A DNA stretch of 62,342 bases, the filler included, from Babesia bigemina (lineage: Eukaryota), in the NCBI RefSeq assembly GCF_000981445.1. It is 14 parts of 14 records of this genome, joined end to end, with 100 filler letters (N's around TTAATTAATTAA, not from the genome) between each part and the next. Parts side by side here need not be neighbours in the genome. Positions count along the whole stretch, not along the records: positions 16,351 to 18,881 come from NW_012236937.1; 13 more parts are not named here. One strand, written 5' to 3'. Both the position numbers and the translations under genes were made by a program. The notes beneath the pieces were generated by a model. The model was not told where the DNA came from, did no database searches, and saw only the letters and a program-made list of their open reading frames with translations. Below, one piece after another: positions 924-59,030 of this stretch. Positions within the stretch are counted from its first letter, which is position 1. Every line of letters begins with the position of its first letter.

Positions 924-1475
924 TTAAAACGTGGCCAAGGCGGTGGCAAAAAGGGCTACCGTTGATACCACAGCGGCGAAACCGGAGACAATCTTCTTGT
1001 CGTACTCACTTACGTACTTCAGCAATGCGACCTTGCCAACTACAGTAGCTTTGTACTTAGAAATGTCGTAGATTGCGTCAATGTGAGCCTTAAGTGCCGC
1101 AAAGTATAAAGCAATCGACTCGTTGGACTCTCTGATGACGGCTGCGACCTCCGCCGTGTTGTCGGTCTTGCCCTTAAGATCCAAGGCTTTTTTAGCAGCG
1201 TCAACCTTCACTCTGGCTGCACTGAACAACTTCACGGCACTTTCGAAACTATCAATCTTGCCCTTGCTGGCGCTAAGGCCAACATCCTTAGTGTAGGCGT
1301 CCTCCGCCTTCAGCTTACTAACTTCGGCCTTCAGGTGATCATCCGCGCTGTCGATGGCCTTAACCCACTCTTCGGGTGTGGAGTCGTCCAACTTGGCTTG
1401 GGCTACGCAGACACTTGCGAAGTTGACGGTGGCAAATCCTACCAAGAGGAGAACAACCTTCTTAAATGCGTTCAT
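924..1475 (-). CDS. Small secreted, probably GPI-anchored surface protein (183 aa)
   Basis: ATG-initiated intronless ORF. It has an N-terminal signal-like segment (MNAFKKVVLLLVGFATVNFASVCVA), an Ala/Lys-rich helical body and a terminal hydrophobic stretch (SGFAAVVSTVALFATALATF) with no cytoplasmic tail. Confidence 0.75.
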   Translation of the reverse strand: MNAFKKVVLLLVGFATVNFASVCVAQAKLDDSTPEEWVKAIDSADDHLKAEVSKLKAEDAYTKDVGLSASKGKIDSFESAVKLFSAARVKVDAAKKALDLKGKTDNTAEVAAVIRESNESIALYFAALKAHIDAIYDISKYKATVVGKVALLKYVSEYDKKIVSGFAAVVSTVALFATALATF

Positions 1476-1659
1476 TGTGATTGATATATACGAGTATGTA
1501 AAAGTTCGGCGTCTTATGCTTAACGACTTTGTCGACTTTAAAGATGTATAAAGTGTTGAGTGACAATGTATGATGACAAGTGCAGAGACTGCGTAGGGTT
1601 AGACAGATTCGAGACGGACCACCACAAGCGCAGGATTACGCCTCATGTGTACTTCTGAG

Positions 1660-12095: not shown

Positions 12096-12957
<862 letters not shown>

Positions 12958-13000
12958 TCAATACTGACCATTTAAATCATACCTGACCTCCATAGCAGAA

Positions 13001-13032
13001 AGTCAAAAGCCTCCGACCGGAGGCTTTTGACT
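13001..13032. terminator. tonB bidirectional terminator (vector); second copy at 14114-14145
   Basis: Perfect hairpin AGTCAAAAGCCTCCG-AC-CGGAGGCTTTTGACT. Confidence 0.9.
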
Positions 13033-13135
13033 TGATCGGCACGTAAGAGGTTCCAACTTTCACCATAATGAAATAAGATCACTACCGGGCGTATTTTTTG
13101 AGTTATCGAGATTTTCAGGAGCTAAGGAAGCTAAA

Positions 13136-13915
13136 ATGAGTATTCAACATTTCCGTGTCGCCCTTATTCCCTTTTTTGCGGCATTTTGCCTTCCTGTTTT
13201 TGCTCACCCAGAAACGCTGGTGAAAGTAAAAGATGCTGAAGATCAGTTGGGTGCACGAGTGGGTTACATCGAACTGGATCTCAACAGCGGTAAGATCCTT
13301 GAGAGTTTACGCCCCGAAGAACGTTTTCCAATGATGAGCACTTTTAAAGTTCTGCTATGTGGCGCGGTATTATCCCGTATTGACGCCGGGCAAGAGCAAC
13401 TCGGTCGCCGCATACACTATTCTCAGAATGACTTGGTTGAGTACTCACCAGTCACAGAAAAGCATCTCACGGATGGCATGACAGTAAGAGAATTATGCAG
13501 TGCTGCCATAACCATGAGTGATAACACTGCGGCCAACTTACTTCTGGCAACGATCGGAGGACCGAAGGAGCTAACCGCTTTTTTGCCACAACATGGGGGA
13601 TCATGTAACTCGCCCTTGATCGTTGGGAAACCCGGAGCTGATGAAGCCATACCAAACGACAAGCGTGACACCACGATGCCTGTAGCAATGGCAACAACGT
13701 TGCGCAAACTATTAACTGGCGAACTACTTACTCTAGCTTCCCGGCAACAATTAATAGACTGGATGGAGGCGGATAAAGTTGCAGGATCACTTCTGCGCTC
13801 GGCCCTCCCGGCTGGCAGGGTTATTGCTGATAAATCTGGAACCGGGAGCGGGGGTTCCCCCGTATCTTTCAGCCCTGGGGCCCGATTGAAAGCCCTCCCG
13901 CATCGAATTATTTAA
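13136..13915 (+). CDS. bla: TEM beta-lactamase (vector), with read errors in the 3' half
   Basis: [30 protein letters not shown]...MMSTFK. Confidence 0.95.
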
Positions 13916-14143
13916 CGACGGGAAGTCGCCAATCTGGGTAAACGAAATANNNNNNNNNNNNNNNNNNNNNNNNNNNNNNNNNNNNNNNNNNNNTTAATTA
14001 ATTAANNNNNNNNNNNNNNNNNNNNNNNNNNNNNNNNNNNNNNNNNNNNAACGAATTCTCTAGATATCGCTCAATACTGACCATTTAAATCATACCTGAC
14101 CTCCATAGCAGAAAGTCAAAAGCCTCCGACCGGAGGCTTTTGA

Positions 14144-15110
<967 letters not shown>

Positions 15111-15302
15111 GTGACCAAACAGGAAAAAACCGCCCTTAACATGGCCCGCTTTATCAGAAGCCAGACATTAACGCTTCTGGAGAAACTCAACGAGCTGGAC
15201 GCGGATGAACAGGCAGACATCTGTGAATCGCTTCACGACCACGCTGATGAGCTTTACCGCAGCTGCCTCGCGCGTTTCGGTGATGACGGTGAAAACCTCT
15301 GA
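15111..15302 (+). CDS. rop: ColE1 Rop copy-number regulator (vector)
   Basis: MTKQEKTALNMARFIRSQTLTLLEKLNELDADEQADICESLHDHADELYRSCLARFGDDGENL. Confidence 0.98.
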   Translation: MTKQEKTALNMARFIRSQTLTLLEKLNELDADEQADICESLHDHADELYRSCLARFGDDGENL

Positions 15303-15325
15303 TGAGGGCCCAAATGTAATCACCT

Positions 15326-15353
15326 GGCTCACCTTCGGGTGGGCCTTTCTGCG
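15326..15353 (+). terminator. T7Te terminator (vector)
   Basis: GGCTCACCTTCGGGTGGGCCTTTCTGCG. Confidence 0.9.
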
Positions 15354-15364
15354 TTGCTGGCGTT

Positions 15365-15952
15365 TTTCCATAGGCTCCGCCCCCCTGACGAGCATCACAA
15401 AAATCGATGCTCAAGTCAGAGGTGGCGAAACCCGACAGGACTATAAAGATACCAGGCGTTTCCCCCTGGAAGCTCCCTCGTGCGCTCTCCTGTTCCGACC
15501 CTGCCGCTTACCGGATACCTGTCCGCCTTTCTCCCTTCGGGAAGCGTGGCGCTTTCTCATAGCTCACGCTGTAGGTATCTCAGTTCGGTGTAGGTCGTTC
15601 GCTCCAAGCTGGGCTGTGTGCACGAACCCCCCGTTCAGCCCGACCGCTGCGCCTTATCCGGTAACTATCGTCTTGAGTCCAACCCGGTAAGACACGACTT
15701 ATCGCCACTGGCAGCAGCCACTGGTAACAGGATTAGCAGAGCGAGGTATGTAGGCGGTGCTACAGAGTTCTTGAAGTGGTGGCCTAACTACGGCTACACT
15801 AGAAGAACAGTATTTGGTATCTGCGCTCTGCTGAAGCCAGTTACCTCGGAAAAAGAGTTGGTAGCTCTTGATCCGGCAAACAAACCACCGCTGGTAGCGG
15901 TGGTTTTTTTGTTTGCAAGCAGCAGATTACGCGCAGAAAAAAAGGATCTCAA
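15365..15952 (-). other. ColE1/pMB1 replication origin (vector)
   Basis: TTTCCATAGGCTCCGCCCCCCTGACGAGC...AAAAAAGGATCTCAA. Confidence 0.97.
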
Positions 15953-15973
15953 GAAGATCCTTTGATTTTCTAC

Positions 15974-16003
15974 CGAAGAAAGGCCCACCCGTGAAGGTGA
16001 GCC
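15974..16003 (-). terminator. T3Te terminator (vector)
   Basis: Reverse complement is GGCTCACCTTCACGGGTGGGCCTTTCTTCG. Confidence 0.85.
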
Positions 16004-16474
16004 AGTGAGTTGATTTCAGTCCAGTTACGCTGGAGTCTGAGGCTCGTCCTGAATGATATCAAGCTTGAATTCGTTGCGCCGAGTGGCTGGTTAGGTATGA
16101 TTCAAATGGTCAGTCTTGCGCGATATCCCGAGCATTCTCCCGCAAATCCCACGAGTTCGCGAGTGACTACACCTCGTCAGAGCAGTGATGACGGTTAGAT
16201 GCGGCTCAGCGCCCTTGCTGGCAACTGCGGACGAATGCTTGGATCTCTGANNNNNNNNNNNNNNNNNNNNNNNNNNNNNNNNNNNNNNNNNNNNTTAATT
16301 AATTAANNNNNNNNNNNNNNNNNNNNNNNNNNNNNNNNNNNNNNNNNNNNGTAACTACTCACTTAGAGAATCACCTACTCACCTAAAATACAAACGTAGT
16401 CTAATGTCTCGAATTACTCTAGCGGCAACCTGTGAACTAAATAGCACCTAATGAGGTGATGAGTGGACGACAGA

Positions 16475-16828
16475 GCAACGTGTCAACCTAGCACACAGGC
16501 AACGTGCTAAGCTGGCAACCAGGCAAAGTGGTAACCTAGCAACCAGGCAAAGTGCTAAGCTGGCACCCAGGCAAAGTGGTGACCTAGCAACCAGGCAAAG
16601 TGTTGACCTAGCACACAGGCAAAGTGCTAAGCTAGCACCCAGGCAAAGTGCTAAGCTTGCAACCAGGCAAAGTGCTAAGCTAGCAACCAGGCAAAGTGGT
16701 GAGCTAGCACCCAGGCAAAGTGCTAAGCTAGCACACAGGCTAAGTGCTAAGCTAGCACGCAGGCAACGTGCTAACTTAACAACCAGGCAAAGTGCTAAGG
16801 TAGCAACCAGGCAAAGTGCTAAGCTGGC
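16475..16828 (+). repeat. 24-bp tandem repeat (CAAAGTGCTAAGCTAGCAACCAGG)
   Basis: Direct inspection; 8-aa periodicity in the overlapping spurious ORFs. Confidence 0.95.
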
Positions 16829-17330
16829 GGATGAAACGTAATTTGGTAGGTGTTGTAGCACGTTGATTGCCTGGTGCGTTGAGTTGTGCGTTGACTGTGA
16901 GAGGTGTCCGCGTTGCCCATTGAGTCAGTGTCACGTGAGGCTGGGTGATTGGTTGCTGACGTAGGCGGTCGTGAGGGCCGCGGCGGGTGGCCTAAGTCGT
17001 GTGTTGCGAGTCGCTGGCAGGGTGGCGTAATCTGCGTTGGTCTCGTTAAGCAGCATTTATAGGCGTCAATGTAGCGATTGTTAATATCACATTTAGGCAC
17101 GTAGCCGACACGCTCCGCCAGTATGGCGCCGATACCGCGGCTCGTAGCACGGTGCTGCTGCACTGTGGGAGTTGAGCGCACGGGTCGCTGCAATTTTAAT
17201 GGCGGTGCGAATAATGAATAATTTATAGTGACAGTTGGTGCTAGTCACATGCGCCGCGTCAGGGCATCTGTGGTATCCCGGGCAGCTTGGGTGTCGGTGG
17301 CCTGGGCTGGTGGCATACAGGGGTGAGGGT
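16826..17330 (+). promoter_or_regulatory. Conserved ~500-bp GC-rich element, copy 1 (putative promoter/5' exon or ncRNA)
   Basis: Four highly similar copies, each directly upstream of a small Cys-rich gene and in the same orientation. Function is inferred. Confidence 0.6.
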
Positions 17331-17339
17331 TATGTAAGT

Positions 17340-17793
17340 CATGTCGCAGTTGGTGAGTGCTTGCGTAGGTGATTGATATGCTTGCAGCTTGAGGGGAGTG
17401 GGCGTGGCAGTGGTAGTGTTGCAGTTGGTGAGTGCGTTGCTAGGTGATTGACATGTCTGCAGGTTGAGGGGACTGGGCGCGGCAGTGGTACGTGTTGCAG
17501 TTGGTGAGTGCGTTGCTTAGGTGATTGATATGTTCGCAGGTTGAGGGGAGTGGGAGCGGCAGTGGTAGTGTTGCAGTTGGTGAGTGCGTTGCTAGGTGAT
17601 TGATATACTTGCAGGTTGAGGGGAGTGGGAGCGGCAGTGGTACGTGTTGCAGTTGGTGAGTGCGTTGCTAGGTGATTGACATGCTTGCAGGTTGAGGGGA
17701 CTGGGAGCGGCAGTGGTAGTGTTGCAGTTGGTGAGTGCTGCTTAGGTGATTGATATGTTTGCAGGCTGAGGGGACTGGGAGGGAAGCGGGAAG
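17340..17793 (+). repeat. 75/76-bp tandem repeat with intron/micro-exon-like structure (~6 units)
   Basis: Unit is GTGAGTGCGTTGCTAGGTGATTGATATGCTTGCAG (35 nt) plus GTTGAGGGGACTGGGAGCGGCAGTGGTA(C)GTGTTGCAGTTG (40-41 nt). Confidence 0.9.
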
Positions 17794-18255
17794 ATGGGCT
17801 ATACTCCATTGTGTAAGTGTACAAAACGATGTACAGAGCATGAGTGTCTTTGTTGTCATTTGTGTTGTGCAGGATGTAGGAGTCCAAGTTGTCTTCGATG
17901 TCTCAATCTGTCTACTCGGCTAAGGAGTGGATTCTGGGACTGCAAACCTCAGAGATGTAATGAATGTGACACCAAATTGTGTCCATGTGACTGTTGTGAG
18001 AAAAAAAAATTGGAAGAACGTCGACAGCTTCGCTCTTCTTCCTCCCTCGCAGTCCAATCGCCTAGTGTCTCCTCTTCTACCACCGTACAGCGTTCCACCG
18101 GTGAACCCAGTGCTGTTCATACCACCGCTCCATCCAATTCCTCCCCCGTCCCTTACATCATCGCCGCCGTCGCCCTCCTCATCGTCGTCGTCTGCGTCAT
18201 GGTCTACTTCCGCATCCGGCCGTTCCACAGGGTGCGGTATCTACTGCGCAGCTGA
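17794..18255 (+). CDS. Small 18-Cys hypervariable single-TM protein, copy 1 (153 aa, tail YFRIRPFHRVRYLLRS)
   Basis: ATG in the conserved GGGAAG-ATG context. Cys scaffold, Ser-rich linker, TM and tail are shared with three paralogues in the window. Confidence 0.85.
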   Translation: MGYTPLCKCTKRCTEHECLCCHLCCAGCRSPSCLRCLNLSTRLRSGFWDCKPQRCNECDTKLCPCDCCEKKKLEERRQLRSSSSLAVQSPSVSSSTTVQRSTGEPSAVHTTAPSNSSPVPYIIAAVALLIVVVCVMVYFRIRPFHRVRYLLRS

Positions 18256-18343: not shown

Positions 18344-18475
18344 CCACTCCCTCCCTACTCCGTCATCGTCGCCATCATCCTGCTCGACCTGTGCATCTTC
18401 CGCTTCCCGGTGGGCCGCAACATCCGCGATTTCCTCGTACGCAAGATTCCCTTCTGCATCGCGTTCTACAGCTGA
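18344..18475 (+). pseudogene. Orphan TM-tail cassette (PYSVIVAIILLDLCIFRFPVGRNIRDFLVRKIPFCIAFYS*)
   Basis: Same tail as gene 50502-51074. It has no ATG and is preceded by an in-frame TGA within GAGGTGAC. Confidence 0.85.
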
Positions 18476-18602: not shown

Positions 18603-18761
18603 CTACTTCACTCTCCCTACTCGGCCATCGCCGCCGTCATCGTTGGCATCATCGTCGCCATCATCCTGCTCGACCTGTGCATCTTCCGCTTTCCGGTGGG
18701 CCGCAACATCCGCGATTTCCTCGTACGCAAGATACCCTTCTGCATCGCGTTCTACAGCTAA
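18603..18761 (+). pseudogene. Orphan TM-tail cassette (PYSAIAAVIVGIIVAIILLDLCIFRFPVGRNIRDFLVRKIPFCIAFYS*)
   Basis: Second tandem copy, with the same flanks as 18344-18475. Confidence 0.85.
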
Positions 18762-19292: not shown

Positions 19293-19315
19293 AATAATCA
19301 CCACTTAGGTCACCA

Positions 19316-19600
19316 CTGTCATCGCTGCCGTGTCCATGTCATCGCTGCCGTGACCATGTCATCGCTGCCGTGACCATGTCATCGCTGCCGTGACCATGTC
19401 ATCGCTGCCGTGACCATGTCATCGCTGCCGTGCCCAGTCATCGCTGCCGTGCCCAGTCATCGCTGCCGTGCCCATGTCATCGCTGCCGTGACCATCAACT
19501 TGGTCAGCACCTTGGTCAGCACATAGGTCAACACTTTGGTCATGGCATGGTCAACACGTTGGTCAGCACATTGGGCAGCACATTGGTGAACACTTTAGTT
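19316..19600. repeat. 20-bp repeat (CCATGTCATCGCTGCCGTGA, 19316-19495) followed by 12-bp repeat (TTGGTCAGCACH, 19499-19600)
   Basis: Direct inspection. Confidence 0.95.
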
Positions 19601-19720: not shown

Positions 19721-22300
19721 TTATGGTTGCAGGTAAAACACTCTGTTAAGCTTGTTAACACGCGCAGCAGCAAGTAGCGATTGAGCAGCAATCCTATGAC
19801 TCGACGGACTATGCAAATGCGATTTGATGTGGAGCAGGTCGAGGCGGATGACCATGATGTGGATGAGGTAGAGGAAGGAGAGGAGCCAGAGAGAAAGGAC
19901 GAGGTAGGAGAAGGGTTGTCGGATGATCCAGAGGAAGTTGTCACATTCTTCGAACAGCTTCTTGAAATACTGCGATTCAAGCACATTCTTCAATTGACTA
20001 CAGAAATCGGAGCACTTCTTCGGCGATGCCTTGTCATTCAACGTCGACGCCTCACCAAAGACGAAACCATACTGGTAGAGCGTTGGTGCGACGCCTTTGC
20101 AGTCGACAATGGAAGAGCACTGACATTTGTTATTTGGCTTCTCATCATTAACAACACCATGCTCCCCCTTCTTACACTTATCACCACGGAGACATCCACG
20201 GCATCCCCAGTCCTGGCAGTTGATGGAGCAGAAGGCGTTGTAGAGACTGTTAAGTAAATCCCAAAACGTCCACGGGAGGTAGATGGCCCAGGAGAGGTAG
20301 GTGTTGGCGTGTTTGTAAGCGACTATTTCATAAGAATAATTACACAGAGATGAAATATAGGATGCGCAGTTAATTCTGTCTTCGCCTAGCTTACACATGC
20401 CGTTTATCGTAAGATTTCGAAGATGGTAGCTTTCACATTTAGAATGGCTAATAGCGTCGGAACCGTATGCATCAGCGATGGATTTTGTGAGCGCGTATGG
20501 ATCCTTATAAAGCTCGATAGATTGCGATTCGATGGACGACACAATAGCATACGAGAATGTGTCACTCCTAACATATAAGGGCTTATTAGTGTTGATGTAC
20601 TGCGCAAGCGACAACGCAAATCCGAAATGCTCAGGTAGGCTGGTGGGCGGCTTCGGTATTAGAGTGAATAAGCATGAAATATCGACATTATCTAGGAACT
20701 TGGTTAGCACTTTGCATACGTCCCTGCCTTTCCTCGTACTACCAGAAAAACCGCGGAAGCCAAGTGGAGGTTGACATGGCATTCCTTTTCTAGAGGTGGA
20801 CGGACAAGTAGCGCACTCATATTTGCATCCAATTTTAGTAAGCTGGTGCGGCAAATGACCAGGTAGACAATCATTTAAATAGGACATAAGTGGCGATGTT
20901 GGTTGGCAGTTTACATCGGTATTTGCCCGGCACGTTGGTTGGCACTTTGCTTGCTTGGTTGGCTGACCCGTTGCTTCTTCACTTGAGTGCTCCTCGCATG
21001 GCCATTTTGCTGGAGCGGCATTGACACCATATTGGCAGTCGGACCAACCGTGGTGTTTAGCAGTCAGGCCACATTGGCTTTTCAAGAAACTCAATGTTGG
21101 TAACATTCTTCGGAGGATGTCAAAGAACATGTCAAGGCAGTCCTCTCCTGTAGCAGGGTAATGGAACTTAATGGAGTTATTGGAGTAATCGCTAGCGTAC
21201 ACTGTGTATTCATCTCCGTGGCCGGCTATAGTGCAGAGAATGTCGTATGATGTTGAGCAGATGTGCGTCACCGCCGTTCGCATATGTTCATATGATGCCT
21301 TTCTCGGGTAGGCTTCTAGAGATATGGAATCGGTGTCGACGACACTGTGCGTAATGGCATCTTCGCTGGTCGTCTCAGTTGTATCTCCTTGGTCTCTCTT
21401 TGCGTCTTCCTCTTTTTCCGCTTCATTGATCTCGTCTATCACTTCCAGGATTCGCCCATCTCGCATGGCTGTATGGACGGGATGATGCGGAAGACCGGAG
21501 AGCCATAGAAGCATTTCATAGACGCTGCATGGTCTTTTCGTCGATGTTAATGCGGACAGGTGACATACATCGTTGTAACGGTTGAGACAATCATAAAGGT
21601 AATGGAGAATGTCGACGACGTTGATTTGATAAGGATTCCTGTTGTTAGCTTTCTTGAGTTCACTAATCTCCGCTACCCACGCAGCAGTCGTTCTTATATT
21701 GCCAGATGAACCAATATTATCGCTGAGCAGATCGTCATAAATTTTCCTACCATTCATAGATGGCATGTCCTGCAACTCACCGGTCTGCTTGCCTTTCACG
21801 GAATTAATCCTGTAACCACGTTTCTCAAAATACTTACCGAACACATTCTTCTCATACGCATTAATTTGCCTAGCTAAATTGGATTGACATTCTTTTTTCA
21901 GCTTCCCCAACCCACCAACCAGTATCTCCACTATCGTCAGGCATACCTTGGCGCAGTTGCGGCCCTCAGGGGTTAAATCGTAATCAGGGGGGGAATCTGG
22001 TTTTTGAGTGTCGGCAGGATCTTTAGGCTTAAGCTTAGTTAGATCACCCTGGAATTTGTTACCACTATACCTGCTCACGTACGCGTGGCCGAGTTGCTGC
22101 GCGAAGTTGGAGAGGCCGGACTTGAGGGGGGCGAGGAGGGGGGAGTCAAGGTCACCAAACTTTTTGGGAGCGAAGTTGTCAAGGGCGTTTCGGAGGTAAT
22201 TTAGGTTAGTGTGGAAGGTGTGGTCGAAGTGATGGACATTAAGATGACCAAAATTTGGTCGACTTCGGTCAAGGTAATTTATTGGAGGCGATTTAGGCAA
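19721..22300 (-). CDS. ves1: VESA1-family gene lacking the N-terminal ~1000 aa (tail type A); truncated or silent copy
   Basis: 859-codon frame without an ATG start, beginning at the HFDH motif that is internal in the long copies and ending NRVFYLQP. Confidence 0.8.
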   Translation of the reverse strand: MPKSPPINYLDRSRPNFGHLNVHHFDHTFHTNLNYLRNALDNFAPKKFGDLDSPLLAPLKSGLSNFAQQLGHAYVSRYSGNKFQGDLTKLKPKDPADTQKPDSPPDYDLTPEGRNCAKVCLTIVEILVGGLGKLKKECQSNLARQINAYEKNVFGKYFEKRGYRINSVKGKQTGELQDMPSMNGRKIYDDLLSDNIGSSGNIRTTAAWVAEISELKKANNRNPYQINVVDILHYLYDCLNRYNDVCHLSALTSTKRPCSVYEMLLWLSGLPHHPVHTAMRDGRILEVIDEINEAEKEEDAKRDQGDTTETTSEDAITHSVVDTDSISLEAYPRKASYEHMRTAVTHICSTSYDILCTIAGHGDEYTVYASDYSNNSIKFHYPATGEDCLDMFFDILRRMLPTLSFLKSQCGLTAKHHGWSDCQYGVNAAPAKWPCEEHSSEEATGQPTKQAKCQPTCRANTDVNCQPTSPLMSYLNDCLPGHLPHQLTKIGCKYECATCPSTSRKGMPCQPPLGFRGFSGSTRKGRDVCKVLTKFLDNVDISCLFTLIPKPPTSLPEHFGFALSLAQYINTNKPLYVRSDTFSYAIVSSIESQSIELYKDPYALTKSIADAYGSDAISHSKCESYHLRNLTINGMCKLGEDRINCASYISSLCNYSYEIVAYKHANTYLSWAIYLPWTFWDLLNSLYNAFCSINCQDWGCRGCLRGDKCKKGEHGVVNDEKPNNKCQCSSIVDCKGVAPTLYQYGFVFGEASTLNDKASPKKCSDFCSQLKNVLESQYFKKLFEECDNFLWIIRQPFSYLVLSLWLLSFLYLIHIMVIRLDLLHIKSHLHSPSSHRIAAQSLLAAARVNKLNRVFYLQP

Positions 22301-22552
22301 TTTTTAAGGGTCGAAGAAATTTCGCAAAATTAGGTGAAAGGGCAGTCAGGGAGGTAAAGGGAGGTGGAGAGGGAGGTGAGGGAAGTGATGGAGATTAAGA
22401 TAACAAAAATTTGGTCAATTTCGGATGAGGTAATTTTTCTGAGGCGATTTAGGCAATTTTTAGGGGTCGAAGAAATATTGCAAAATTAGGTGAAAGGGCA
22501 GTTAGAGGGGTTAAGGGAGGTGATGAAGGGGATGGTAAGTGTAATTAAAGAA

Positions 22553-23316
22553 GCGATGTGGAGTGGATAAAGGGGCGATGTAGAGTGGGTCAAGGGGCGA
22601 TGTGGAGTGGATAAAGGGGCGATGTAGAGTGGGTTAAGGGCGATGTAGAGTGGGTTAAGGGCGATGTAGAGTGGATAAAGGGGCGATGTGGAGTGGATAA
22701 GGAGCGATGTAGAGTGGATAAAGGGGCGATGTGGAGTGGATAAGGGGCGATGTAGAGTGGGTTAAGGAGCGACGTAGAGTGGATAATAATCACCACTTGT
22801 GACCATGTCATCGCTGCCGTAACCATGTCATCGCTGTCGTAACCATGTCATCGCTGCCGTGACCACTAACTTGGTGAGGTGCTTGGTCATCACGTTGGTC
22901 ATGGCATTGGTCAACACTTTGGTCAGCACATTGGTCATGGCATTGGTCAACACTTTGGTCACCACTTTGGTCATGGCATTGGTCAGCACCTTGGTCAACA
23001 CCTTGGTCACCACGTTGGTCAGCACATTGGTCAGCACTTTGGTCACCACTCTGGTCAACACGTTGGTCAGCTGTTAGGTCAGCACTTTGGTCAGCACATT
23101 GATCAACACTGTCATCGCTGCCGTGTCCATGTCATCGCTGCCGTGCCCATGTCATCGCTGCCGTAACCACAACAATGTCATCGCTGCCGTGACCATGTCA
23201 TCGCTGCCGTAACCATGTCATCGCTGCCGTTACCATGTCATCGCTGCCGTGACCATGTCATCGCTGCCGTGTCCATGTCATCGCTGCCGTGACCATGTCA
23301 TCGCTGCCGTAACCAC
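22553..23316. repeat. Composite array: 23-bp (22553-22785), 20-bp (22798-22865), 12-bp (22870-23108), 20-bp (23109-23316)
   Basis: Direct inspection. Confidence 0.95.
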
Positions 23317-23339
23317 TAACTTGATCAGGTGCTTGGTTA

Positions 23340-23893
23340 ACACGTAGCTTGCGTGCTCGCTTAGCACTTTGCCTGGGTGCCAGCTTAGCACTTTGCCTGG
23401 GTGCTAGCTTAGCACGTTGCCTGGGTGCTAGCTTACCACTTTGCCTGGTTGCTAGGTTAGCACTATGCCTGTTTGCTAGCTTAGCACTTTGCCTGGGTGC
23501 TAGGTCAACACGTTGCCTGGGTGCTAGCTTAGCACTTTGCCTGTGTGCTAGCTTAGCACTTTGCCTTAGTGCTAGGTTGACACGTTGCCTGAGTGCTAGG
23601 TTACCACTTTGCCTGGTTGCCAGCTTAGCACTTTGCTTGTGTGCTAGCTTAGCACTTAGCCTGGGTGCCAGCTTACCACGTTGCCTGGGTGCTAGGTCGC
23701 CACGTAGCCTGGGTGCTAGGTCAACACTTTGCCTGGTCGCTAGGTCAGCACTTCGCCTGGTTGCTAGCTTAGCACGTTGCCTGGGTGCTAGCTTAGCACT
23801 TAGCTTGTGTGCTAGCTTAGCACTTAGCCTGGGTGCAAGCTTAGCACTTTGCCTGGGTGCTAGGTCAACACGTTGCTTGGTCAACACGTTGCT
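23340..23893 (-). repeat. 24-bp tandem repeat
   Basis: Reverse complement of the 16475 unit. Confidence 0.95.
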
Positions 23894-29562: not shown

Positions 29563-29736
29563 AGCTTTTTAGTAGCATCATCAATAAAAGAATGGTCAGT
29601 ATCAGCAAGTACTTATAAAGGTTTATAGAGGTCATAGCGTTGATAAGACAAAGTAATTCGAGAGATTTGGACTTAGGGTGAACATGATGGGACATGGCAG
29701 TGGCAAGCGGTGGAAGAAGGGAAGTGAAGAGCGACA

Positions 29737-29794
29737 AGGCACAAGTTATTATTGTGGTTAATAGAGGTCATAGCGGTATTATGGCGAGGTAATT
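29737..29794 (-). promoter_or_regulatory. Conserved ves 5' leader (AATTACCTCGCCATAATACCGCTATGACCT...ATAACTTGTGCCT); also ~40345-40402, ~48868-48928, ~59947-60008 and ~60301-60362
   Basis: Five copies, each immediately after a 23-bp array; four are followed by a ves frame and the fifth runs into a contig end. Function unknown. Confidence 0.7.
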
Positions 29795-32700
29795 TGGGCG
29801 ATGTAGAGTGGGTAAAGGGGCGATGTGGAGTGGATCAGGGAGCGATGAAGAGTGGATAAAGCGGCGATGTAGAGTGGATTAGGGAGCGATGTAGAGTGGA
29901 TAAAGGGGCGATGTAGAGTGGGTAAAGGGGCGATGCAGAGTGGGTAAAGAGGCGATGTAGAGTGGGTAAAGGAGCGATGTAGAGTGGATAGAGGAGCGAT
30001 GTAGAGTGGGTAAAGGGGCGATGTGGAGTGGATAAGGGAGCGATGTAGAGTGGATAAGGGAGCGATGTGGAGTGGATAAAGGGGCGATGCAGAGTGGGTA
30101 AAGGGGCGATGTAGAGTGGATAAAGGGGCGATGTAGAGTGGNNNNNNNNNNNNNNNNNNNNNNNNNNNNNNNNNNNNNNNNNNNNTTAATTAATTAANNN
30201 NNNNNNNNNNNNNNNNNNNNNNNNNNNNNNNNNNNNNNNNNAGGGGCGATGTAGAGTGGATAAAGGAGCGATGTAGAGTGGAGTAAGGGGCGATGTAGAG
30301 TGGATAAAGGGGCGATGTAGAGTGGGTAAAGAGGCGATGTGGAGTGGATTAGGAGCGATGTAGAGTGGGTTAAGGGGCGATGTAGAGTGGATTAAGGGGC
30401 GATGTAGAGTGGATAAGGGGCGATGTAGAGTGGGTTAAGGGGCGATGTAGAGTGGATTAAGGGGCGATGTAGAGTGGATAAGGGGCGATGTAGAGTGGGT
30501 TAGGGAGCGATGTAGAGTGGGTTAAGGGGCGATGTAGAGTGGACTAAAAGGCGATGTAGAGTGGATTAGGGAGCGATGTAGACACGGTTAAGGAGCGATG
30601 TGGAGTGAGTTAGGGGGCGATGTGGAGTGGAAAAAGGAGCGATGTAGAGTGGGTAAAGGGGCGATGAAGGGAGGTTAAGGAGCGATGGAGACTGGGTTAG
30701 GGAGCGATGTAGAGTGGGTTAAGGGGCGATGAAGGGTGGGTTAGGGAGCGATGTAGAGTGGGTAAAGGGGCGATGTAGAGTGGGTCAAGGGGCGATGTGG
30801 AGTGGGTTAAGAGGGCGATGTAAACTGGGTTAAGGGGCGATGTAGAGTATGTTAGGGGCGATGTAGAGTGGGTTAGGGACGCGATGTAGATGTGGGTATA
30901 GGAGCGCATGTAGAGTGGATAAAGGAGCGATGTAGAGTGGATAAAGGATGCGATGTAGCGTGGATAAAGGGGCGATGTAGAGTGGGTAAAGGAGCGATGT
31001 AGAGTGGGTTAAGGAGCGATGTAGAGTGAATAAAGGGGCGATGTAGAGTGAATAAAGGGGCGATGTAGAGTGGATTAAGGGGCGATGTAGAGTTGATAAA
31101 GGAGCGATGTAGAGTGGGTAAAGGGCGATGTAGAGTGGATAAAGGGGCGATGTGGAGTGGGTAAGGGACGATGTAGAGTGGGTTAGGGAGCGATGTAGAG
31201 TGGGTTAAGGGGCGATGTAGAGTGGGTTAAGGGGCGATGTGGAGTGGGTAAAGGGGCGGTGTAGAGTGGGTTAAGGGGCGATGTGGAGTGGGTAAAGGGG
31301 CGGTGTAGAGTGGGTTAAGGGGCGATGTAGAGTGGGTTAGGGAGCGATGTAGAGTGGGTTAAGGGGCGATGTAGAGTGGGTTAGGGAGCGATGTAGAGTG
31401 GGTTAAGGGGCGATGTAGAGTAGATTAGGGGCGATGTAGAGTGGGTTAAGGGGCGATGTAGAGTGGATAAAGGGGCGATGTAGAGTGGATAAAGGGGCGA
31501 TGTGGAGTTGATAAAGGGGCGATGTAGAGTGGGTTAGGGAGCGATGTAGAGTGGGTTAAAAGGCGATGTGAAGTGGATAAAGGGGCGATGTAGAGTGGGT
31601 AAAGGGGCGATGTAGAGTGGATAAAGGGGCGATGTAGAGTGGATAAAGGAGCGATGTAGAGTGGGTAAAGGAGCGATGTAGAGTGGATAAAGGGGCGATG
31701 TAGAGTGGATAAAGGGGCGATGTAGAGTGGAGTAAGGGGCGATGTAGAGTGGGTTAAGGGGCGATGTAGAGTGGATAAAGGAGCGATGTAGAGTGGAGTA
31801 AGGGGCGATGTAGAGTGGATAAAGGGGCGATGTAGAGTGGGTAAAGAGGCGATGTGGAGTGGATTAGGAGCGATGTAGAGTGGGTTAAGGGGCGATGTAG
31901 AGTGGATTAAGGGGCGATGTAGAGTGGATAAGGGGCGATGTAGAGTGGGTTAAGGGGCGATGTAGAGTGGATTAAGGGGCGATGTAGAGTGGACAAAGGG
32001 GCGATGTAGAGTGGGTTAGGGAGCGATGTAGAGTGGGTAAAGGGGCGATGTAGAGTGGATAAAGGGGCGATGTAGAGTGGGTAAAGGGGCGATGTGGAGT
32101 GGGTAAGGGAGCGATGTAGAGTGGATAAGGGGCGATGTGGAGTGGGTAAGGGAGCGATGTAGAGTGGATAAGGGGCGATGTAGGGTGGGTAAAGGAGCGA
32201 TGTGGAGTGGATAAAGGAACGATGTAGAGTGGGTTAGGGAGCGATGTAGAGTGGGTTATGGAGCGATGTGGAGTGTGTTAAGGGGCGATGTAAGGTGGAT
32301 AAGGGAGCGATGTAAAGTGGGTTAAGGGGCGATGCAGAGTGGATAAAAAGGCAATGTGGAGTGGATAAAGGAGCGATGTAGAGTGGGTTAGGGAGCGATG
32401 TAGAGTGGGTAAAGGAGCGATGGAGAGTGGGTTAGGGAGCGATGTAGGGTGGGTTAAGGGGCGATGTAGAGTGGGTAAGGGAGCGATGTAGAGTGGATAA
32501 AGGGGCGATGTAGAGTGGATAAAGGGGCGATGTAGAGTGGGTTAGGGAGCGATGTAGAGTGGGTTAAGGGGCGATGTGGAGTGGATTAGGGAGCGATGTA
32601 GAGTGGGTTAAGGGGCGATGTAGAGTGGGTTAAGGAGCGGTGTTGAGTGGGTTAGGGAGCGATGTAGAGTGGGTAAGGGGCTATGTAGAGTGGATAAAGG

Positions 32701-33370: not shown

Positions 33371-33814
33371 TTAGCTGCGCAGTAGATACCGCACCCTGTG
33401 GAACGGCCGGATGCGGAAGTATATCATGGCGCAGATGACGACGATGACGAGGGCGATAGGTGCGATGATGTAAGGCGCGGGGGAACCGGTGGTAGGCGGT
33501 TGAATGACGGCTTGATGCTCAGCTGTGCGGGAAGAAGAGGAACCGGAGTCAAGGGCGGCACTGGGAGTTAAAGAGAGACGGGAAGGGTAGAGGACTATGC
33601 GTTTCTCGACACAACAGTTACATAGACAGTCGCTGTAACACTCTTTACATCTCGAATGATCGCACTGCTCCTGTCCATTCTTGCGCAAATAGGAGAAGTG
33701 GATACATTGAAGACACCGTGCTATACATCCTTTACAACACCAAGAACAGCAATTACACACTACCTCTTCTTTGCATTGCTTATTACACTTGTAACACCGC
33801 TCCCCTTTCCCCAT
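33371..33814 (-). CDS. Small 18-Cys hypervariable single-TM protein, copy 2 (147 aa)
   Basis: Same scaffold, start context and YFRIRPFHRVRYLLRS tail. Confidence 0.85.
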   Translation of the reverse strand: MGKGERCYKCNKQCKEEVVCNCCSWCCKGCIARCLQCIHFSYLRKNGQEQCDHSRCKECYSDCLCNCCVEKRIVLYPSRLSLTPSAALDSGSSSSRTAEHQAVIQPPTTGSPAPYIIAPIALVIVVICAMIYFRIRPFHRVRYLLRS

Positions 33815-33924
33815 CTTCCCGCTCCCCTCCCAGTCCCCTCAGCCTGCGAACATATCAATCACCTATCAACGCACTCACCAACTGCAACACGTACCACTGC
33901 CGCTCCCAGTCCCCTCACCAACGC

Positions 33925-34412
33925 ACTCACCGCTGTATCCCCCCAGCCCGGGCCACCGACACCCGCACTGCCCGGGATACCACAGCTGCCCTGACGCGAC
34001 GCATGTCATCAGCACCAACTGTCACTTTAAATTATTCACTATTCGCAACGCCATAAAAATTGCAGCGAGCCACGTGCGCTCAACTCCCACAGTGCAGCAG
34101 CACCGTGCTACGAGCCGCGGTATCGGCGCCATACTGGCGGAGTGTGTCGGCTACGTGCCTAAATGTTATATTAACGATCGCTACATTGCCGCCTATAAAT
34201 GCTACTTAACTAGGCCAACGCGGATTACGCCACCCTGCCAGCGACTCGCAACACACGGCTTACGTCACCCGCCGCGGCCCTCACGGCCGCCTACGTTAGC
34301 GACCAATCACCCAGCCTCACGTGACACTCACTCAATGGGTAACGCGTACACCTCTCACAGTCAACGCACAACTCAACGCCACAACACCTACCAAATTACG
34401 GTTCATCCGCCA
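33925..34412 (-). promoter_or_regulatory. Conserved ~500-bp element, copy 2 (followed by only ~1.5 units of the 75-bp repeat, 33820-33925)
   Basis: High similarity to 16826-17330. Confidence 0.6.
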
Positions 34413-34840
34413 GCTTAGCACTTTGCCTGAGTGCTAGGTTAGCACTTTGCCTGGGTGCCAGCTTACCACTTTGCCTGGGTGCTAGGTCACCACTTTGCCT
34501 GAGTGCTAGCTTAGCACTTTGGTCATGGCATTGGTCAACACGTTGCCTGGTTGCCAGCTTAGCACTTTGCCTGGATGCTAGCTTAGCACTTAGCCTGGGT
34601 GCTAGGTCAACACTTAGCCTGGGTGCCAGCTTAGCACTTAGCCTGGTTGCTAGGTTAACACTTCGCCTGTGTGCCAGCTTAGCACGTTGCCTGGTTGCTA
34701 GGTTACTACTTTGCCTGGTTGCCAGCTTAGCACTTTCCCCGGTTGCCAGCTTATCACTTAGCTTGCGTGCTACCTTATCACTTTGCCTGGGTGCTAGGTT
34801 AGCACTTTACCTGCGTGCTAGGTCAACACGTTGCTTGGTC
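34412..34840 (-). repeat. 24-bp tandem repeat
   Basis: Direct inspection. Confidence 0.95.
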
Positions 34841-50501: not shown

Positions 50502-51074
50502 TCAGCTGTAAAACGCGATGCAGAAGGGTATCTTGCGTACGAGGAAATCGCGGATGTTGCGGCCCACCGGGAAGCGGAAGATGCACAGGTCGAGCAGGAT
50601 GATGGCGACAATGATGGCAACGATGACGGCGGCGATGGCTTGGGGGTCAGGGGAAAAAGGTGTGGAGTCTTCTTCAGTAGGGTCTTCGATGGAATCTTCA
50701 TTACCGCTGGTACGACGTAGTGCACTGTTCTCGGACAGATCACCGGAGGAATCAGGGGGAGGCGGTGGAGGTGGAGGCTGTGGAACGGGGGCACTGCACT
50801 CGTCAGGCCGCTCTCTACATTTCCGTTGACAACAGTCACATTTACATTGTAACTCGTTGCCTGCACATTTGGTTATACAATCGAAGGTTTTGCAATTGTA
50901 ACTTGGATCCTTGTTATTTTGCCGCTTCCAGGTATATGCAAAACACTCATAACAACGGGATAAACTATCCGTATTACATTCTTTGCAACACCAGGGACAG
51001 CAGTTACAAACCTGCATATATTTACACTTTTTGTTACACCTAGTGCATGGTTTCCCTGGCCAATAATGAGTCAT
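50502..51074 (-). CDS. Small Cys-rich single-TM protein, copy 3 (190 aa, 18+2 Cys, alternative tail FRFPVGRNIRDFLVRKIPFCIAFYS)
   Basis: Same scaffold and GGGAAG-ATG context; Pro-rich linker. Confidence 0.85.
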   Translation of the reverse strand: MTHYWPGKPCTRCNKKCKYMQVCNCCPWCCKECNTDSLSRCYECFAYTWKRQNNKDPSYNCKTFDCITKCAGNELQCKCDCCQRKCRERPDECSAPVPQPPPPPPPPDSSGDLSENSALRRTSGNEDSIEDPTEEDSTPFSPDPQAIAAVIVAIIVAIILLDLCIFRFPVGRNIRDFLVRKIPFCIAFYS

Positions 51075-51079
51075 CTTCC

Positions 51080-51750
51080 CGCTCTGCTCCCAGTCCCCTC
51101 AACCTGCAAACATATCAGTCACCTAAGCACAACTCACCTACAAAAACACGTACCACTGCCGCTCCCAGTCCCCTCACCCTGCGAACATATCAATCACCTA
51201 GCAACGCACTCACCGACTGCAACACGTACCACTGCCGCTCCCAGTCCCCTCAACCTGCAAACATATCAGTCACCTATGCAAGCACTCACAAACTGCAACA
51301 CGTACACTGCCGCTCCCAGTCCCCTCAGCCTGCAGACATATCAATCACTCAAGCAACGCACTCACCAACTGCAACACGTACCACTGCCGCGCCCAGTCCC
51401 CTCAACCTGCGAACATGTCAATCACTCAAGCAGCACTCACCAACTGCAACACTACCACTGCCGCTCCCAGTCCCCTCAGCCTGCAAACATATCAATCACT
51501 CAAGCTGCACTCACCAACTGCAACACTACCACTGCCGCTCCCAGTCCCCTCAACCTGCAAACATATCAATCACCTAGCAACGCACTCACCAACTGCAACA
51601 CGTACCACTGCCACTCCCAGTCCCCTCAACCTGCGAACATATCAATCACTCATGCAACGCACTCACCAACTGCAACACGTACCACTGCCGCTACCAGTCC
51701 CCTCAGCCTGCAAACATATCAATAACCTAAGCAGCACTCACCAACTGCAA
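51080..51750 (-). repeat. 75/76-bp intron/micro-exon-like repeat (~9 units)
   Basis: Reverse complement of the 17340 unit. Confidence 0.9.
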
Positions 51751-51764
51751 CATGACTTACTTAA

Positions 51765-52240
51765 CCCTCACCCCTGTGTCCCCCCAGCCCAGGCCACCGA
51801 CACCCACGCTGCCCGGGATACCACAGCTGCCCTGACGCGACGCATGTGATCAGCACCAACTGTCACTCTAAATTATTAAATATTCGCAAAGCCATTAAAA
51901 TTGCAGCGACCCGTGCGCTCAACTCCCACAGTGCAGCAGCACCGTGCTACGAGCTGCGGTATCGGCGCTATGCTGGCTGAGTGTGTCGGCTACGTGCCTA
52001 AATGTGATATTAACGATCGCTACATCGCTGCCTATAAATGCTACTTAACCAGGCCAACGCGGATTACGCCACCCTGCCAGTGACTCGCAACACACGACTT
52101 AGGACACCCGCCGCGGCCCTCACGACCGCCTACGTTAGCGACCAATCACCCAGCCTCACGTGACACTGACTCAATGGGCAACGCGGACACCTCTCACAGT
52201 CAACGCACAGCTCAACGCAACAACCAAATAACGGTTCATT
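51765..52240 (-). promoter_or_regulatory. Conserved ~500-bp element, copy 3
   Basis: High similarity to the other copies. Confidence 0.6.
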
Positions 52241-52242
52241 TG

Positions 52243-52408
52243 CCAGCTTACCACTTTGCCTGGTTGCCAGCTTACCACCTTGCCTGGTTGCCAGCTTAGC
52301 ACTTTGCCTGGTTGCTAGCTTAGCACTTAGCCTGGTTGCTAGGTTAGCACTTTACCTGGGTGCCAGCTTAGCACTTAGCCTGGTTGCTAGGTTAGCACGT
52401 TGCTTGGT
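52243..52408 (-). repeat. 24-bp tandem repeat
   Basis: Direct inspection. Confidence 0.93.
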
Positions 52409-56556: not shown

Positions 56557-57437
56557 AACTAAAGTGTTGACCAATGTGCTGCCCAATGCTGTAACTAAGG
56601 TGCTGACCAATGCCATGACCAACGTGCTGACCAAAGTGCTGACCAAGGTGCTGACCAAGGTGCTGACCAACGTGTTGACCAAAGTGGTGACCAACGTGCT
56701 GACCAAGGTGCTGACCAAAGTGGTGACCAAAGTGGTGACCAACGTGTTGACCAACGTGCTGACCAAGATGCTGACCAACGTGCTGACCAAGTTCTGACCA
56801 AAGTACTGACCAAGGTGCTGACCAAAGTACTGACCAATGTGCTGACCAATGCCATGACCAATGTGCTGACCAAGGTGCTGACCAAAGTGGTGACCAAAGT
56901 GGTGACCAACGTGTTGACCAACGTGCTGACCAACGTGCTGACCAACGTGTTGACCTAGCACCCAGGCAAAGTGCTGACTTAGCAACCAGGCAAAGTGCTA
57001 AGCTAGCAACCAGGCAACGTGCTAAGCTAGCAACCAGGCAACGTGCTAAGCTAGCAACCAGGCAAAGTGCTAAGCTAGCAACCAGGCAAAGTGCTAAGCT
57101 AGCAACCAGGCTAAGTGTTGACCTAGCAACCAGGCAAAGTGCTAACCTTGCACGCAGGCAAAGTGGTAAGCAAGCACACAAGCAACGTGCTGACCTAGCA
57201 ACCAGGCAAAGTGGTAAGCTAGCACTCAGGCAAAGTGGTAAGCTAGCACCCAGGCAAAGTGCTGACCTAGCAACCACGCAAAGTGCTAAGCTAGCACCCA
57301 GGCTAAGTGGTAAGCTGGCAACCGAGCTAAGTGCTAACCTAGCACCCAGGCAACGTGTTGACCTAGCACTCAGGCAAAGTGCTAACCTAGCAACCAGGCA
57401 AAGTGCTAAGCTAGCAACTAGGCAAAGTGCTAAGCTG
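56557..57437 (+). repeat. 12-bp repeat (56557-56952) grading into 24-bp repeat (56945-57437)
   Basis: Direct inspection. Confidence 0.95.
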
Positions 57438-57940
57438 GCGGATGAACCATAATTTGGTGGGTGTTGTAGCACGTTGATTGCCTGGTGTGTTGAGTTGTGC
57501 GTTGACTGTGAGTGGTGTCCGCGTTGCCCTTTGAGTCAGTGTCACGTGAGGCTGGGTGATTGGTCGCTAACGTAGGCGGCCGTGAGGGCCGCGGCGGGTG
57601 ACCTAAGTCGTGTGTTGCGAGTCACTGGCAGGGTGGCGTAATCGGCGTTGGCCCGGTTAAGTAGTTTTATAGGCGGCGATGTAGCGATAGTTAATATCAC
57701 ATTTAGGCACGTAGCCGACACGCTCCGCCAGCATGGCGCCGATACCGCGGCTCGTAGCACGGTGCTGCTGCACTGTGGGAGTTGAGAGCACGGGACTCGC
57801 TGCAATTTTAATGGCGTTGCGAAAAATGAATAATTTAGGGTGACAGTTGGTGCTGATCACATGCGTCGCGTCAGGGCAGCTGTGGTATCCTGGGCAGCGG
57901 GGGTGTCGGTGGCCTGGGCTGGGGGATACAGCGGTGAGGG
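57436..57940 (+). promoter_or_regulatory. Conserved ~500-bp element, copy 4
   Basis: High similarity to the other copies. Confidence 0.6.
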
Positions 57941-57949
57941 TGAGTGTTG

Positions 57950-58574
57950 ATGAGGGGACTGGGAGCGGCAGTGGTAGTGTTGCAGTTGGTGAGTGCGTTG
58001 GTAGGTGATTGATATGTTCGCAGGTTGAGGGGACTGGGCGCGGAAGTGGTAGTGTTGCAGTTGGTGAGTGCTGCTTGAGTGATTGATGTCTGCAGGCTGA
58101 GGGGAGTGGGCGCGGCAGTGGTACGTGTTGCAGTTGGTGAGTGCGTTGCTAGGTGATTGATATGTTCGCAGGTTGAGGGGACTGGGCGCGGCAGTGGTAC
58201 GTGTTGCAGTTGGTGAGTGCGTTGCTAGGTGATTTATATGTCTGCAGGTTGAGGGACTGGTAGCGGCAGTGGTACGTGTTGCAGTTGGTGAGTGCGTTGC
58301 TAGGTGATTGATATGCTTGCAGGTTGAGGGGACTGGGAGCGGCAGTGGTAGTGTTGCAGTTGGTGAGTGCGTTGCTTAGTGATTGATATGTTCGCAGGTT
58401 GAGGGGAGTGAGAAGGTAGAGGCAGTGGTAGTGTTGCAGTTGGTGAGTGCGTTGGTAGGTGATTGATATGTTCGCAGGTTGAGGGGACTGGGCGCGGAAG
58501 TGGTAGTGTTGCAGTTGGTGAGTGCTGCTTGAGTGATTGACATGTTTGCAGGTTGAGGGGAGTGGGAGGGGAAG
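57950..58574 (+). repeat. 75/76-bp intron/micro-exon-like repeat (~8-9 units)
   Basis: Same unit as 17340-17793. Confidence 0.9.
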
Positions 58575-59030
58575 ATGTCGAAGTGTAAGTGTGATAATAC
58601 ATGTCAGCCGCGTGAGTGTAGATGCTGCCAGTACTGTTGTAAGAGATGTGGTTTATGTGAAGAATGTCGTGATATATACTTTGAGCGCAAAGGTACAGGC
58701 GAATGCCATCGTTTGAAATGTCTTGGTTGTTTAACCAACTGTGTTTGTTTATGTTGCAGAAGTGATCGCTTTACTGTTACCTATACTCGTTATTACAGCA
58801 GTCCAGAGCGTGCCGGCTCTACCTCCCGTGTTGCCGCTGTCCCCGGTTCCGCCTCTCGCCCCGATTCTCAGCACCGGGTCTCCGCTCAACAGTCCTCCAC
58901 CGCTTCCACCCCCAACGTCCTCCCGTACATCATCGCCGCCGTCGCCGTCATCATCATCGTCGTCGTCTGCGTCATGATCTACTTCCGCATCCGGCCGTTC
59001 CACAGGGTGCGGTATCTACTGCGCAGCTGA
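58575..59030 (+). CDS. Small 18-Cys hypervariable single-TM protein, copy 4 (151 aa)
   Basis: Same scaffold, start context and YFRIRPFHRVRYLLRS tail. Confidence 0.85.
   Translation: MSKCKCDNTCQPRECRCCQYCCKRCGLCEECRDIYFERKGTGECHRLKCLGCLTNCVCLCCRSDRFTVTYTRYYSSPERAGSTSRVAAVPGSASRPDSQHRVSAQQSSTASTPNVLPYIIAAVAVIIIVVVCVMIYFRIRPFHRVRYLLRS

What the first reader, a model, noticed from the sequence alone, without database searches (positions are those of the whole stretch)
16826..17330. Highly conserved ~500-bp non-coding element upstream of each small Cys-rich gene
Seen: four copies (16826, 33925, 51765, 57436) are far more alike than the ectodomains they precede. No long ORF is conserved. They share TGAGTCAGTGTCACGTGAGGCTGGGTGATTGG (one mismatch in copy 2) and an antisense CCTATAAA. 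Known: GC-rich RUF6 ncRNA elements flank internal var genes in Plasmodium falciparum, and B. bovis ves1 pairs use a shared promoter region. Inference: a common, possibly bidirectional promoter or a regulatory ncRNA for the locus.
Basis: partly seen in the sequence, partly recalled or inferred. Interest (0 to 1): 0.7.

Follow-up and report, generated by a model that had tools for sequence, protein, structure and literature searches.

The report
Shared leader of Babesia surface-gene family
A 500-base non-coding stretch, 93% alike in four copies, sits in front of each member of an unnamed family of small cysteine-rich, predicted membrane proteins of the cattle parasite Babesia bigemina, and is likely their shared promoter and untranslated first exon rather than a regulatory RNA or two-way promoter.

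Summary
Observation confirmed, interpretation partly. Four copies (two per strand) are 93% identical, against 66% DNA identity for the ectodomains. They are not exceptional for the cassette: the adjoining 75-bp repeat units are 92% alike, and substitutions are evenly spread and mosaic.

The window is Babesia bigemina. Each copy lies head-to-tail in one module: ves1 3' end, 24-bp array, element, 75-bp array, then a gene of 147-190 codons (17 invariant Cys, one TM, no signal peptide). That family has about 60 'hypothetical' models, all B. bigemina.

The element ends at a donor-like G|GTGAG. The 75-bp units read as 35-nt introns plus 40-nt non-coding exons. Best reading: a family-shared, var-ups-like promoter plus first 5'-UTR exon, homogenised by gene conversion (0.6).

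RUF6-like RNA fails: no B-box, folding no better than shuffles, no covariation. A B. bovis-type bidirectional promoter fails on layout, since no divergent gene exists, and TATA boxes are reported non-functional in B. bovis. No transcript was shown; 0 of 44 family genes are in a published RNA-seq table, where most ves controls are missing too. The undescribed gene family is more interesting than the element.

The parts
16823..17322 (+). element copy 1 (inferred promoter plus non-coding first exon)
33931..34414 (-). element copy 2
51772..52247 (-). element copy 3
57434..57933 (+). element copy 4
17323..17793 (+). 75-bp array of copy 1: 6 intron-like segments (34-36 nt core) with 40-41-nt exon-like spacers; predicted spliced 5' leader
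33815..33930 (-). shortest leader array (one full unit), copy 2
51075..51771 (-). 75-bp array of copy 3 (9 acceptors)
57934..58574 (+). 75-bp array of copy 4 (8 acceptors)
17794..18255 (+). small Cys-rich single-TM ORF, 153 aa, RPFHR-type tail
33371..33814 (-). small Cys-rich single-TM ORF, 147 aa, RPFHR-type tail
50502..51074 (-). small Cys-rich single-TM ORF, 190 aa, FPVGR-type tail
58575..59030 (+). small Cys-rich single-TM ORF, 151 aa, RPFHR-type tail
16488..16825 (.). 24-bp array abutting copy 1 upstream
34412..34821 (.). 24-bp array between the ves1 stop (34980) and copy 2
52240..52408 (.). 24-bp array between the ves1 stop (52550) and copy 3
56955..57436 (.). 24-bp array upstream of copy 4 (ves1 stop at 56438, same strand)
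17049..17097 (-). about 50-bp centre of the element (holds the antisense CCTATAAA) that resembles the 20/22-bp array junction upstream of ves1 genes; same place in all four copies; limits approximate
17249..17322 (+). upstream ATG present in all 4 copies (25-codon frame up to the first donor); frame not conserved between copies; cannot join the main ORF

Best explanation
The element is likely the one-directional promoter and non-coding first exon shared by a B. bigemina-specific family of small Cys-rich, predicted single-pass membrane genes, and its copies are likely kept alike by gene conversion of the whole cassette. RNA polymerase II would start inside it, in one of the A/T-rich patches (about position 260-270 or 375-405). 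Exon 1 would end at the conserved G|GTGAG at its 3' edge. The 1-9 downstream repeat introns would be spliced from the 5' UTR, and translation would start at the GGGAAG-ATG. The shared leader would put a hypervariable gene family under one regulatory class, as ups regions do for var. Shown: sequence, position, linkage, absence of a divergent gene, non-coding status. Inferred: transcription, start site, splicing, gene conversion, surface location.
For: (1) 4 of 4 elements lie directly 5' of, and in sense with, a full gene. The fifth 24-bp array (23328-23863) has neither element nor small gene after it. (2) Linkage extends to the annotated B. bigemina genome: 6 of 57 family models begin at the element's own ATG, and 20 of 57 hold array-derived peptides by tblastn; 32 of 60 by a looser pattern. 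(3) The conserved block stops at a donor-like site. Of 23 pattern-matched intron-like segments (32-36 nt), 22 carry a YTRAY branch-like word, 21 of them 12 nt from the AG. GTGAGT and GCAG are invariant in 19 of 19 units picked by their exon start. (4) The leader is non-coding: exon-like parts vary 40/41/45 nt, a TGA stands in frame before the main ATG in 4 of 4, and the upstream frame breaks in copy 4 and in 4 of the 6 database models. (5) All three possible groupings occur among 7 informative sites, as expected of mosaic copies. (6) The ORFs look selected: 17 Cys invariant across 17 intact members of otherwise low identity.
Against: No transcript, start site or splice junction was observed. 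0 of 44 family locus tags are among 3,721 genes passing 1 CPM in a B. bigemina RNA-seq table (PMC9806345 supplement 1). That test is weak: another strain was mapped to the reference, and only 1 of 8 ves control genes is listed. Variation is evenly spread, with no motif blocks standing out. No strong initiator site is conserved on the sense strand, the best-scoring sites are on either strand, and the ATGGGG core motif of B. bovis is not seen in the alignment. Upstream ATGs would lie in the UTR. With units 92% alike, invariant splice words are not a strong test. About 16 database models have leaders that I could not read from this element (counted by eye), so not every member need carry it.
Confidence: 0.6

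Rival explanations
1. The element has no transcriptional role at most copies. It is the unique-sequence part of a duplicated ves1/small-gene cassette, homogenised by recent duplication and conversion, and perhaps serves as a homology block for recombination of silent donor genes.
For: Identity equals that of the neighbouring satellite units (92%). Substitutions are even and mosaic. No family gene is in the RNA-seq table. The neighbouring ves1 ORFs abut 22-bp arrays, with the first in-frame Met 85-199 codons in.
Against: Intact ORFs with 17 invariant Cys imply expression from some promoter, and this is the only unique sequence upstream. The element is more alike (93%) than the 3' flanks (83-86%). 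This reading and the best one are not exclusive.
Confidence: 0.2
2. The element is, or descends from, a bidirectional promoter. Its antisense half is related to the DNA upstream of ves1 genes, and it drives either a ves1 gene at head-to-head loci elsewhere or an antisense RNA into the upstream ves1 3' end.
For: About 50 bp of the antisense centre align to the 20/22-bp array junction upstream of ves1 (best z=8.4 against 200 shuffles). In a scan of 2,534 windows the four centres rank 1, 2, 9 and 10, and the six sites between them are all 12-bp arrays. Initiator-like words occur on the antisense strand.
Against: The match was found post hoc; whole-window E-values are only 0.095 (BLAST) and 0.31 (nhmmer), and the four copies are not independent. 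No divergent gene in 4 of 4. No long inverted repeat (best self-match 36 nt at 67%, E 0.32). No significant antisense match to the ves1 5' ends themselves.
Confidence: 0.1
3. The element is a RUF6-like or other structured regulatory ncRNA gene.
For: It is multicopy, sits among variant antigen genes, is somewhat GC-rich (57% against 49%), and has loose A-box-like words.
Against: No B-box on either strand in 4 of 4. Folding is no better than shuffles. Covariation term +0.31, with 1 of 155 pairs changed on both sides. No Rfam match. Four copies at 93% give little power for covariation.
Confidence: 0.05
4. The last 74 nt of the element are a coding first exon (a signal-peptide-like leader) joined through the micro-exons to the Cys-rich ORF, as some automatic gene models have it.
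For: The ATG is present in 4 of 4 copies, 6 database models start there, and in copy 1 the spliced frame stays open for over 100 codons.
Against: The last exon has a TGA in the main frame in 4 of 4. The fully spliced leader is out of frame in 4 of 4. Copy 4 has a 1-nt deletion, and 4 of the 6 models change frame after 5-6 codons.
Confidence: 0.05

Closest known systems
Plasmodium falciparum var ups (upsA/B/C) promoter classes (PMC4413850, passages)
   Same: A conserved upstream region shared by members of a hypervariable, predicted surface multigene family; a hint of more than one leader class among the database models.
   Different: No sequence relation was tested or is expected; a different gene family; much shorter (var ups lengths recalled as kilobases); followed by a tandem array of predicted UTR introns; activity not shown.
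Babesia bovis ves1alpha/ves1beta bidirectional promoter of the locus of active transcription (PMC7485966, PMC6630957, PMC4066756, passages; the primary paper, Wang 2012, was not held)
   Same: Same genus, ves-linked, multicopy non-coding region of a few hundred bases.
   Different: Here the genes are head-to-tail, the element is not quasi-palindromic, and the gene behind it is not a ves1.
P. falciparum RUF6 / GC-rich ncRNA (PMC5175341, passages)
   Same: Multicopy conserved non-coding element among variant antigen genes.
   Different: No B-box, no conserved structure, and a fixed place directly 5' of a protein gene, ending at a splice-donor-like site.
B. bovis smORF and B. bigemina ves2 (PMC4066756, section 22 read in part)
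   Same: Small, species-specific multicopy genes interspersed with ves1.
   Different: Those are predicted secreted, with a signal peptide and no TM. This family has no N-terminal hydrophobic stretch, one C-terminal TM and a 17-Cys domain.

Membership tests
RUF6 / GC-rich Pol III ncRNA | internal A- and B-box | tested here: not met
   No GTTCRA or GWTCRANNC on either strand in 4 of 4; only loose A-box words (box patterns recalled)
RUF6 / GC-rich Pol III ncRNA | match to the Rfam model | tested here: not met
   only the vector's RNAI passes a gathering score
RUF6 / GC-rich Pol III ncRNA | conserved stem-loop structure | tested here: not met
   z -0.66 and -0.31 for copy 2; 1 of 155 pairs covarying; low power with 4 copies
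RUF6 / GC-rich Pol III ncRNA | discrete transcript | not testable with these tools
   No RNA holder listed; laid runs gave no test
B. bovis-type bidirectional ves promoter | lies between two divergent genes | tested here: not met
   Antisense side = 24-bp array plus ves1 3' end in 4 of 4 (copy 1: tail only, at a contig edge)
B. bovis-type bidirectional ves promoter | quasi-palindromic sequence | tested here: not met
   Best inverted self-match 36 nt at 67%, E 0.32, tested on copies 1 and 2
B. bovis-type bidirectional ves promoter | promoter activity in both directions | not testable with these tools
   Needs reporter or cap data
family-shared upstream (ups-like) promoter region | conserved, non-coding, fixed 5' of family members | tested here: met
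   4 of 4 in the window; 6 of 57 models start inside it
family-shared upstream (ups-like) promoter region | holds the start site and piroplasm core motifs | tested here: inconclusive
   TYAYWWW at about position 265 in 3 of 4 on the sense strand; similar scores on the antisense strand
ves2 / smORF (for the downstream gene) | signal peptide, no TM, homology to the ves1 5' end | tested here: not met
   N-terminal hydropathy at most 0.17, one TM at 2.7-3.3; no VESA1_N match at E up to 5 in 17 members; no ves hits

The most novel reading that the evidence does not exclude
B. bigemina carries a second, undescribed variant surface family (about 60 small 17-Cys membrane proteins) built into its ves1 cassettes. 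One shared promoter drives them through a variable-length ladder of 1-9 repeated 5'-UTR introns that tunes or gates expression. The promoter's antisense core is the same motif that is amplified into the 22-bp arrays ahead of ves1, coupling the two families. The small proteins could be the missing Cys-rich partner of VESA1b.
Probability: 0.15. Interest if true: 0.75.

Novelty: new member of a known kind. Interest (0 to 1): 0.42.

Why it matters
If right, it gives a concrete cis-element and leader to test for control of variant surface genes in B. bigemina, where ves regulation is unknown and VESA1a was not detected (PMC4066756, section 23). It also corrects many wrong automatic gene models. The element itself is an expected kind of feature. 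The value lies in the unnamed Cys-rich family behind it and in the predicted tandem UTR introns.

Tried and rejected
No genome is held for the window, so copies could not be counted genome-wide.

Sequencing runs: no RNA holder listed. Four of the 24 listed runs were laid and gave 0 reads, which is no test. A metagenome pattern scan gave 0 matches.

RNA: Rfam gave only sub-threshold miRNA hits on the palindromic 24-bp array. Structure tests were negative.

Protein: Pfam on the small proteins gave only TM-type matches below cut-off. The search for longer, fused forms found none, which is weak evidence. The AlphaFold model was low confidence (pLDDT 60, pTM 0.28) and had no PDB match. The ESM Atlas gave no usable hit for the Cys domain. 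One weak hit outside B. bigemina (P0060, E 2.5e-4) was set aside as compositional. A recalled likeness to the B. bovis CKRD found no support.

Published tables: the proteome table was checked for only 2 of 44 locus tags, both absent; the peptide words tried were no test, as no peptide column was seen. Six ids (4 family, 2 neighbours) were absent from the single-cell atlas supplements, which are marker lists.

Earlier scan findings: none. Wang 2012 could not be read.

Full report
SOURCE. The window is an unfinished clone in 14 pieces with cloning vector at about 12-16 kb. The small proteins hit only Babesia bigemina 'hypothetical' proteins. The long ORFs of 1,790-1,888 codons are VESA1-type: the C-terminal third of one scores 0.96-0.97 against VESA1 clusters. 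Calling them ves1b rests on recalled tail motifs and on gene order in the reference, not on a direct test.

OBSERVATION. The 32-mer occurs four times and never in 100 shuffles; copies 2 and 3 are on the minus strand. The block runs 16823-17322, 33931-34414, 51772-52247 and 57434-57933 and is 92.4-93.7% identical. Ectodomain DNA averages 66%, same-type TM exons 90-96%, 3' flanks 83% and ves1 3' tails 86%. The adjoining 75-bp units are 92% alike within and between arrays (19 units). The 64 variable columns are evenly spread (p 0.31 and 0.40), and the 7 informative sites support all three groupings.

ANATOMY. Read in the sense of the small gene, each module is: ves1 stop and short tail, 24-bp array, element, 75-bp array, GGGAAG-ATG, Cys-rich ORF with one TM, then a 3' flank; further on come 12- and/or 20-bp arrays and a 22-bp array, which lead into the next ves1 where the contig continues. 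The upstream ves1 stop is 303-996 bp away in copies 2-4; copy 1 starts its contig with the ves1 tail. All genes are head-to-tail. One more 24-bp array (23328-23863) lacks both element and small gene, and three tail-only fragments lack an element.

THE LEADER. The conserved block ends at G|GTGAG in all four copies. Each 75-bp unit is an exon-like 39-45 nt plus a 32-36-nt segment GTGAGT...YTRAY...CAG: 23 were matched by pattern, 22 with the branch-like word, 21 at 12 nt from the end. That this size suits Babesia introns is recalled, not checked; B. bovis ves1beta genes have up to 11 introns (PMC4066756). Units number 1 to 9. [quoted passage not shown] The leader is therefore non-coding, and database models that translate it are probably wrong. 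Splicing was not observed.

THE GENE FAMILY. A profile search returned 57 proteins, 57 of 57 B. bigemina. An unindexed HMMER search of 1.84 billion representatives returned 41, of which 40 are B. bigemina and one is a weak unnamed hit; 60 models in all. Seventeen intact members share 17 invariant Cys, a Ser/Pro stalk, one TM and one of two tails; the four window proteins have no N-terminal hydrophobic stretch. Locus numbers place several beside genes of the VESA1B peptide group (0200060/0200070, 0305020/0305030, 0305310/0305330, 0111400/0111420). Six of 57 models begin at the element's ATG and 20 contain array peptides, so the linkage is not confined to this clone.

RUF6 elements carry A- and B-boxes (PMC5175341); none of the four copies has a B-box. 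Copy 2 folds no better than shuffles on either strand, the alignment shows no covariation, and Rfam is silent. B. bovis bidirectional promoters are quasi-palindromic and lie between divergent genes (PMC7485966); neither holds here. TATA boxes were judged non-functional in B. bovis, where TYAYWWW marks start sites (PMC4148916). That word is at about position 265 on the sense strand in 3 of 4 copies, but sites of similar score lie on the antisense strand. One result favours a two-way ancestry: about 50 bp around the antisense CCTATAAA resemble the array junction upstream of ves1 (z up to 8.4; ranks 1, 2, 9, 10 of 2,534 windows). It is post hoc and has whole-window E of 0.1-0.3.

EXPRESSION. Not shown. 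None of 44 family locus tags is among the 3,721 genes kept in a blood/kinete RNA-seq table. Only 1 of 8 ves controls is listed and another strain was mapped to the reference, so this speaks against broad strong expression at most.

LITERATURE. Searches listed no paper that names this element or family. Seen: PMC4066756 (abstract, sections 20, 21, 23, first part of 22, passages, supplement legends, searches of the proteome table); PMC4761415 (sections 6 and 8, passages); passages of PMC6630957, PMC12064010, PMC7485966, PMC10975891, PMC4148916, PMC5175341, PMC10463595, PMC5660447 and PMC4413850; passages and supplement searches of PMC9806345 and PMC9531838. PMC4066756 says in general terms that B. 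bigemina-specific genes often have a conserved C-terminus and TM, which may cover this family unnamed. Its figures and the cluster tables of PMC5660447 were not seen and could list it. Wang 2012 was not available.

VERDICT. A real feature; most likely a shared one-way promoter plus first UTR exon of an unnamed variant family (0.6), with passive homogenisation the main rival (0.2). New member of a known kind; interest 0.42.

Noticed in passing
window 17794-18255, 33371-33814, 50502-51074, 58575-59030; database proteins P0001-P0061: Unnamed B. bigemina-restricted family of about 60 small proteins: 17 invariant Cys, Ser/Pro stalk, one TM, two tail types, no signal peptide; interleaved with ves1 genes.
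   Followed up: yes
window 29568-29796, 40352-40407, 48892-48934, 60300-60500: The long ves1 ORFs begin right after 22-bp arrays of 0.2-3.3 kb, with the first in-frame Met 85-199 codons in. They may be 5'-incomplete silent cassettes, recalling repeat-flanked VSG donors (analogy recalled).
   Followed up: partly
window 18359-18472, 18666-18758, 50253-50366: Extra TM-tail-only copies follow genes 1 and 3, of either tail type; possible alternative 3' exons or conversion remnants. Some database models join two tails.
   Followed up: no
window 16488-16825, 19312-19587, 22802-23863, 42318-43103, 49600-50153, 56564-57436, 59112-59566: An ordered set of 12-, 20-, 22- and 24-bp satellites frames every gene. 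The 24-bp unit is nearly palindromic, and the 12- and 24-bp units contain GTGC words (likeness to SPE2 recalled, untested).
   Followed up: no
database proteins P0001, P0003, P0004, P0008, P0009, P0016, P0035, P0040 and others: About 16 family models have N-terminal leaders not readable from this element, hinting at a second upstream class. P0035 shares only its first residues with a frame at element position 301.
   Followed up: partly
window about 12096-16130: Cloning-vector sequence (ColE1-type origin, RNAI at 15809-15912) within the unfinished assembly.
   Followed up: partly
window 22226-22522: A 156-bp duplication of unrelated-looking sequence replaces the 5' part of the ves1 fragment at 19721-22303.
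   Followed up: no
window 924-1598 (-): ORF with a signal-peptide-like start and hydrophobic end, possibly a GPI-anchored surface protein; no Pfam match above cut-off.
   Followed up: no
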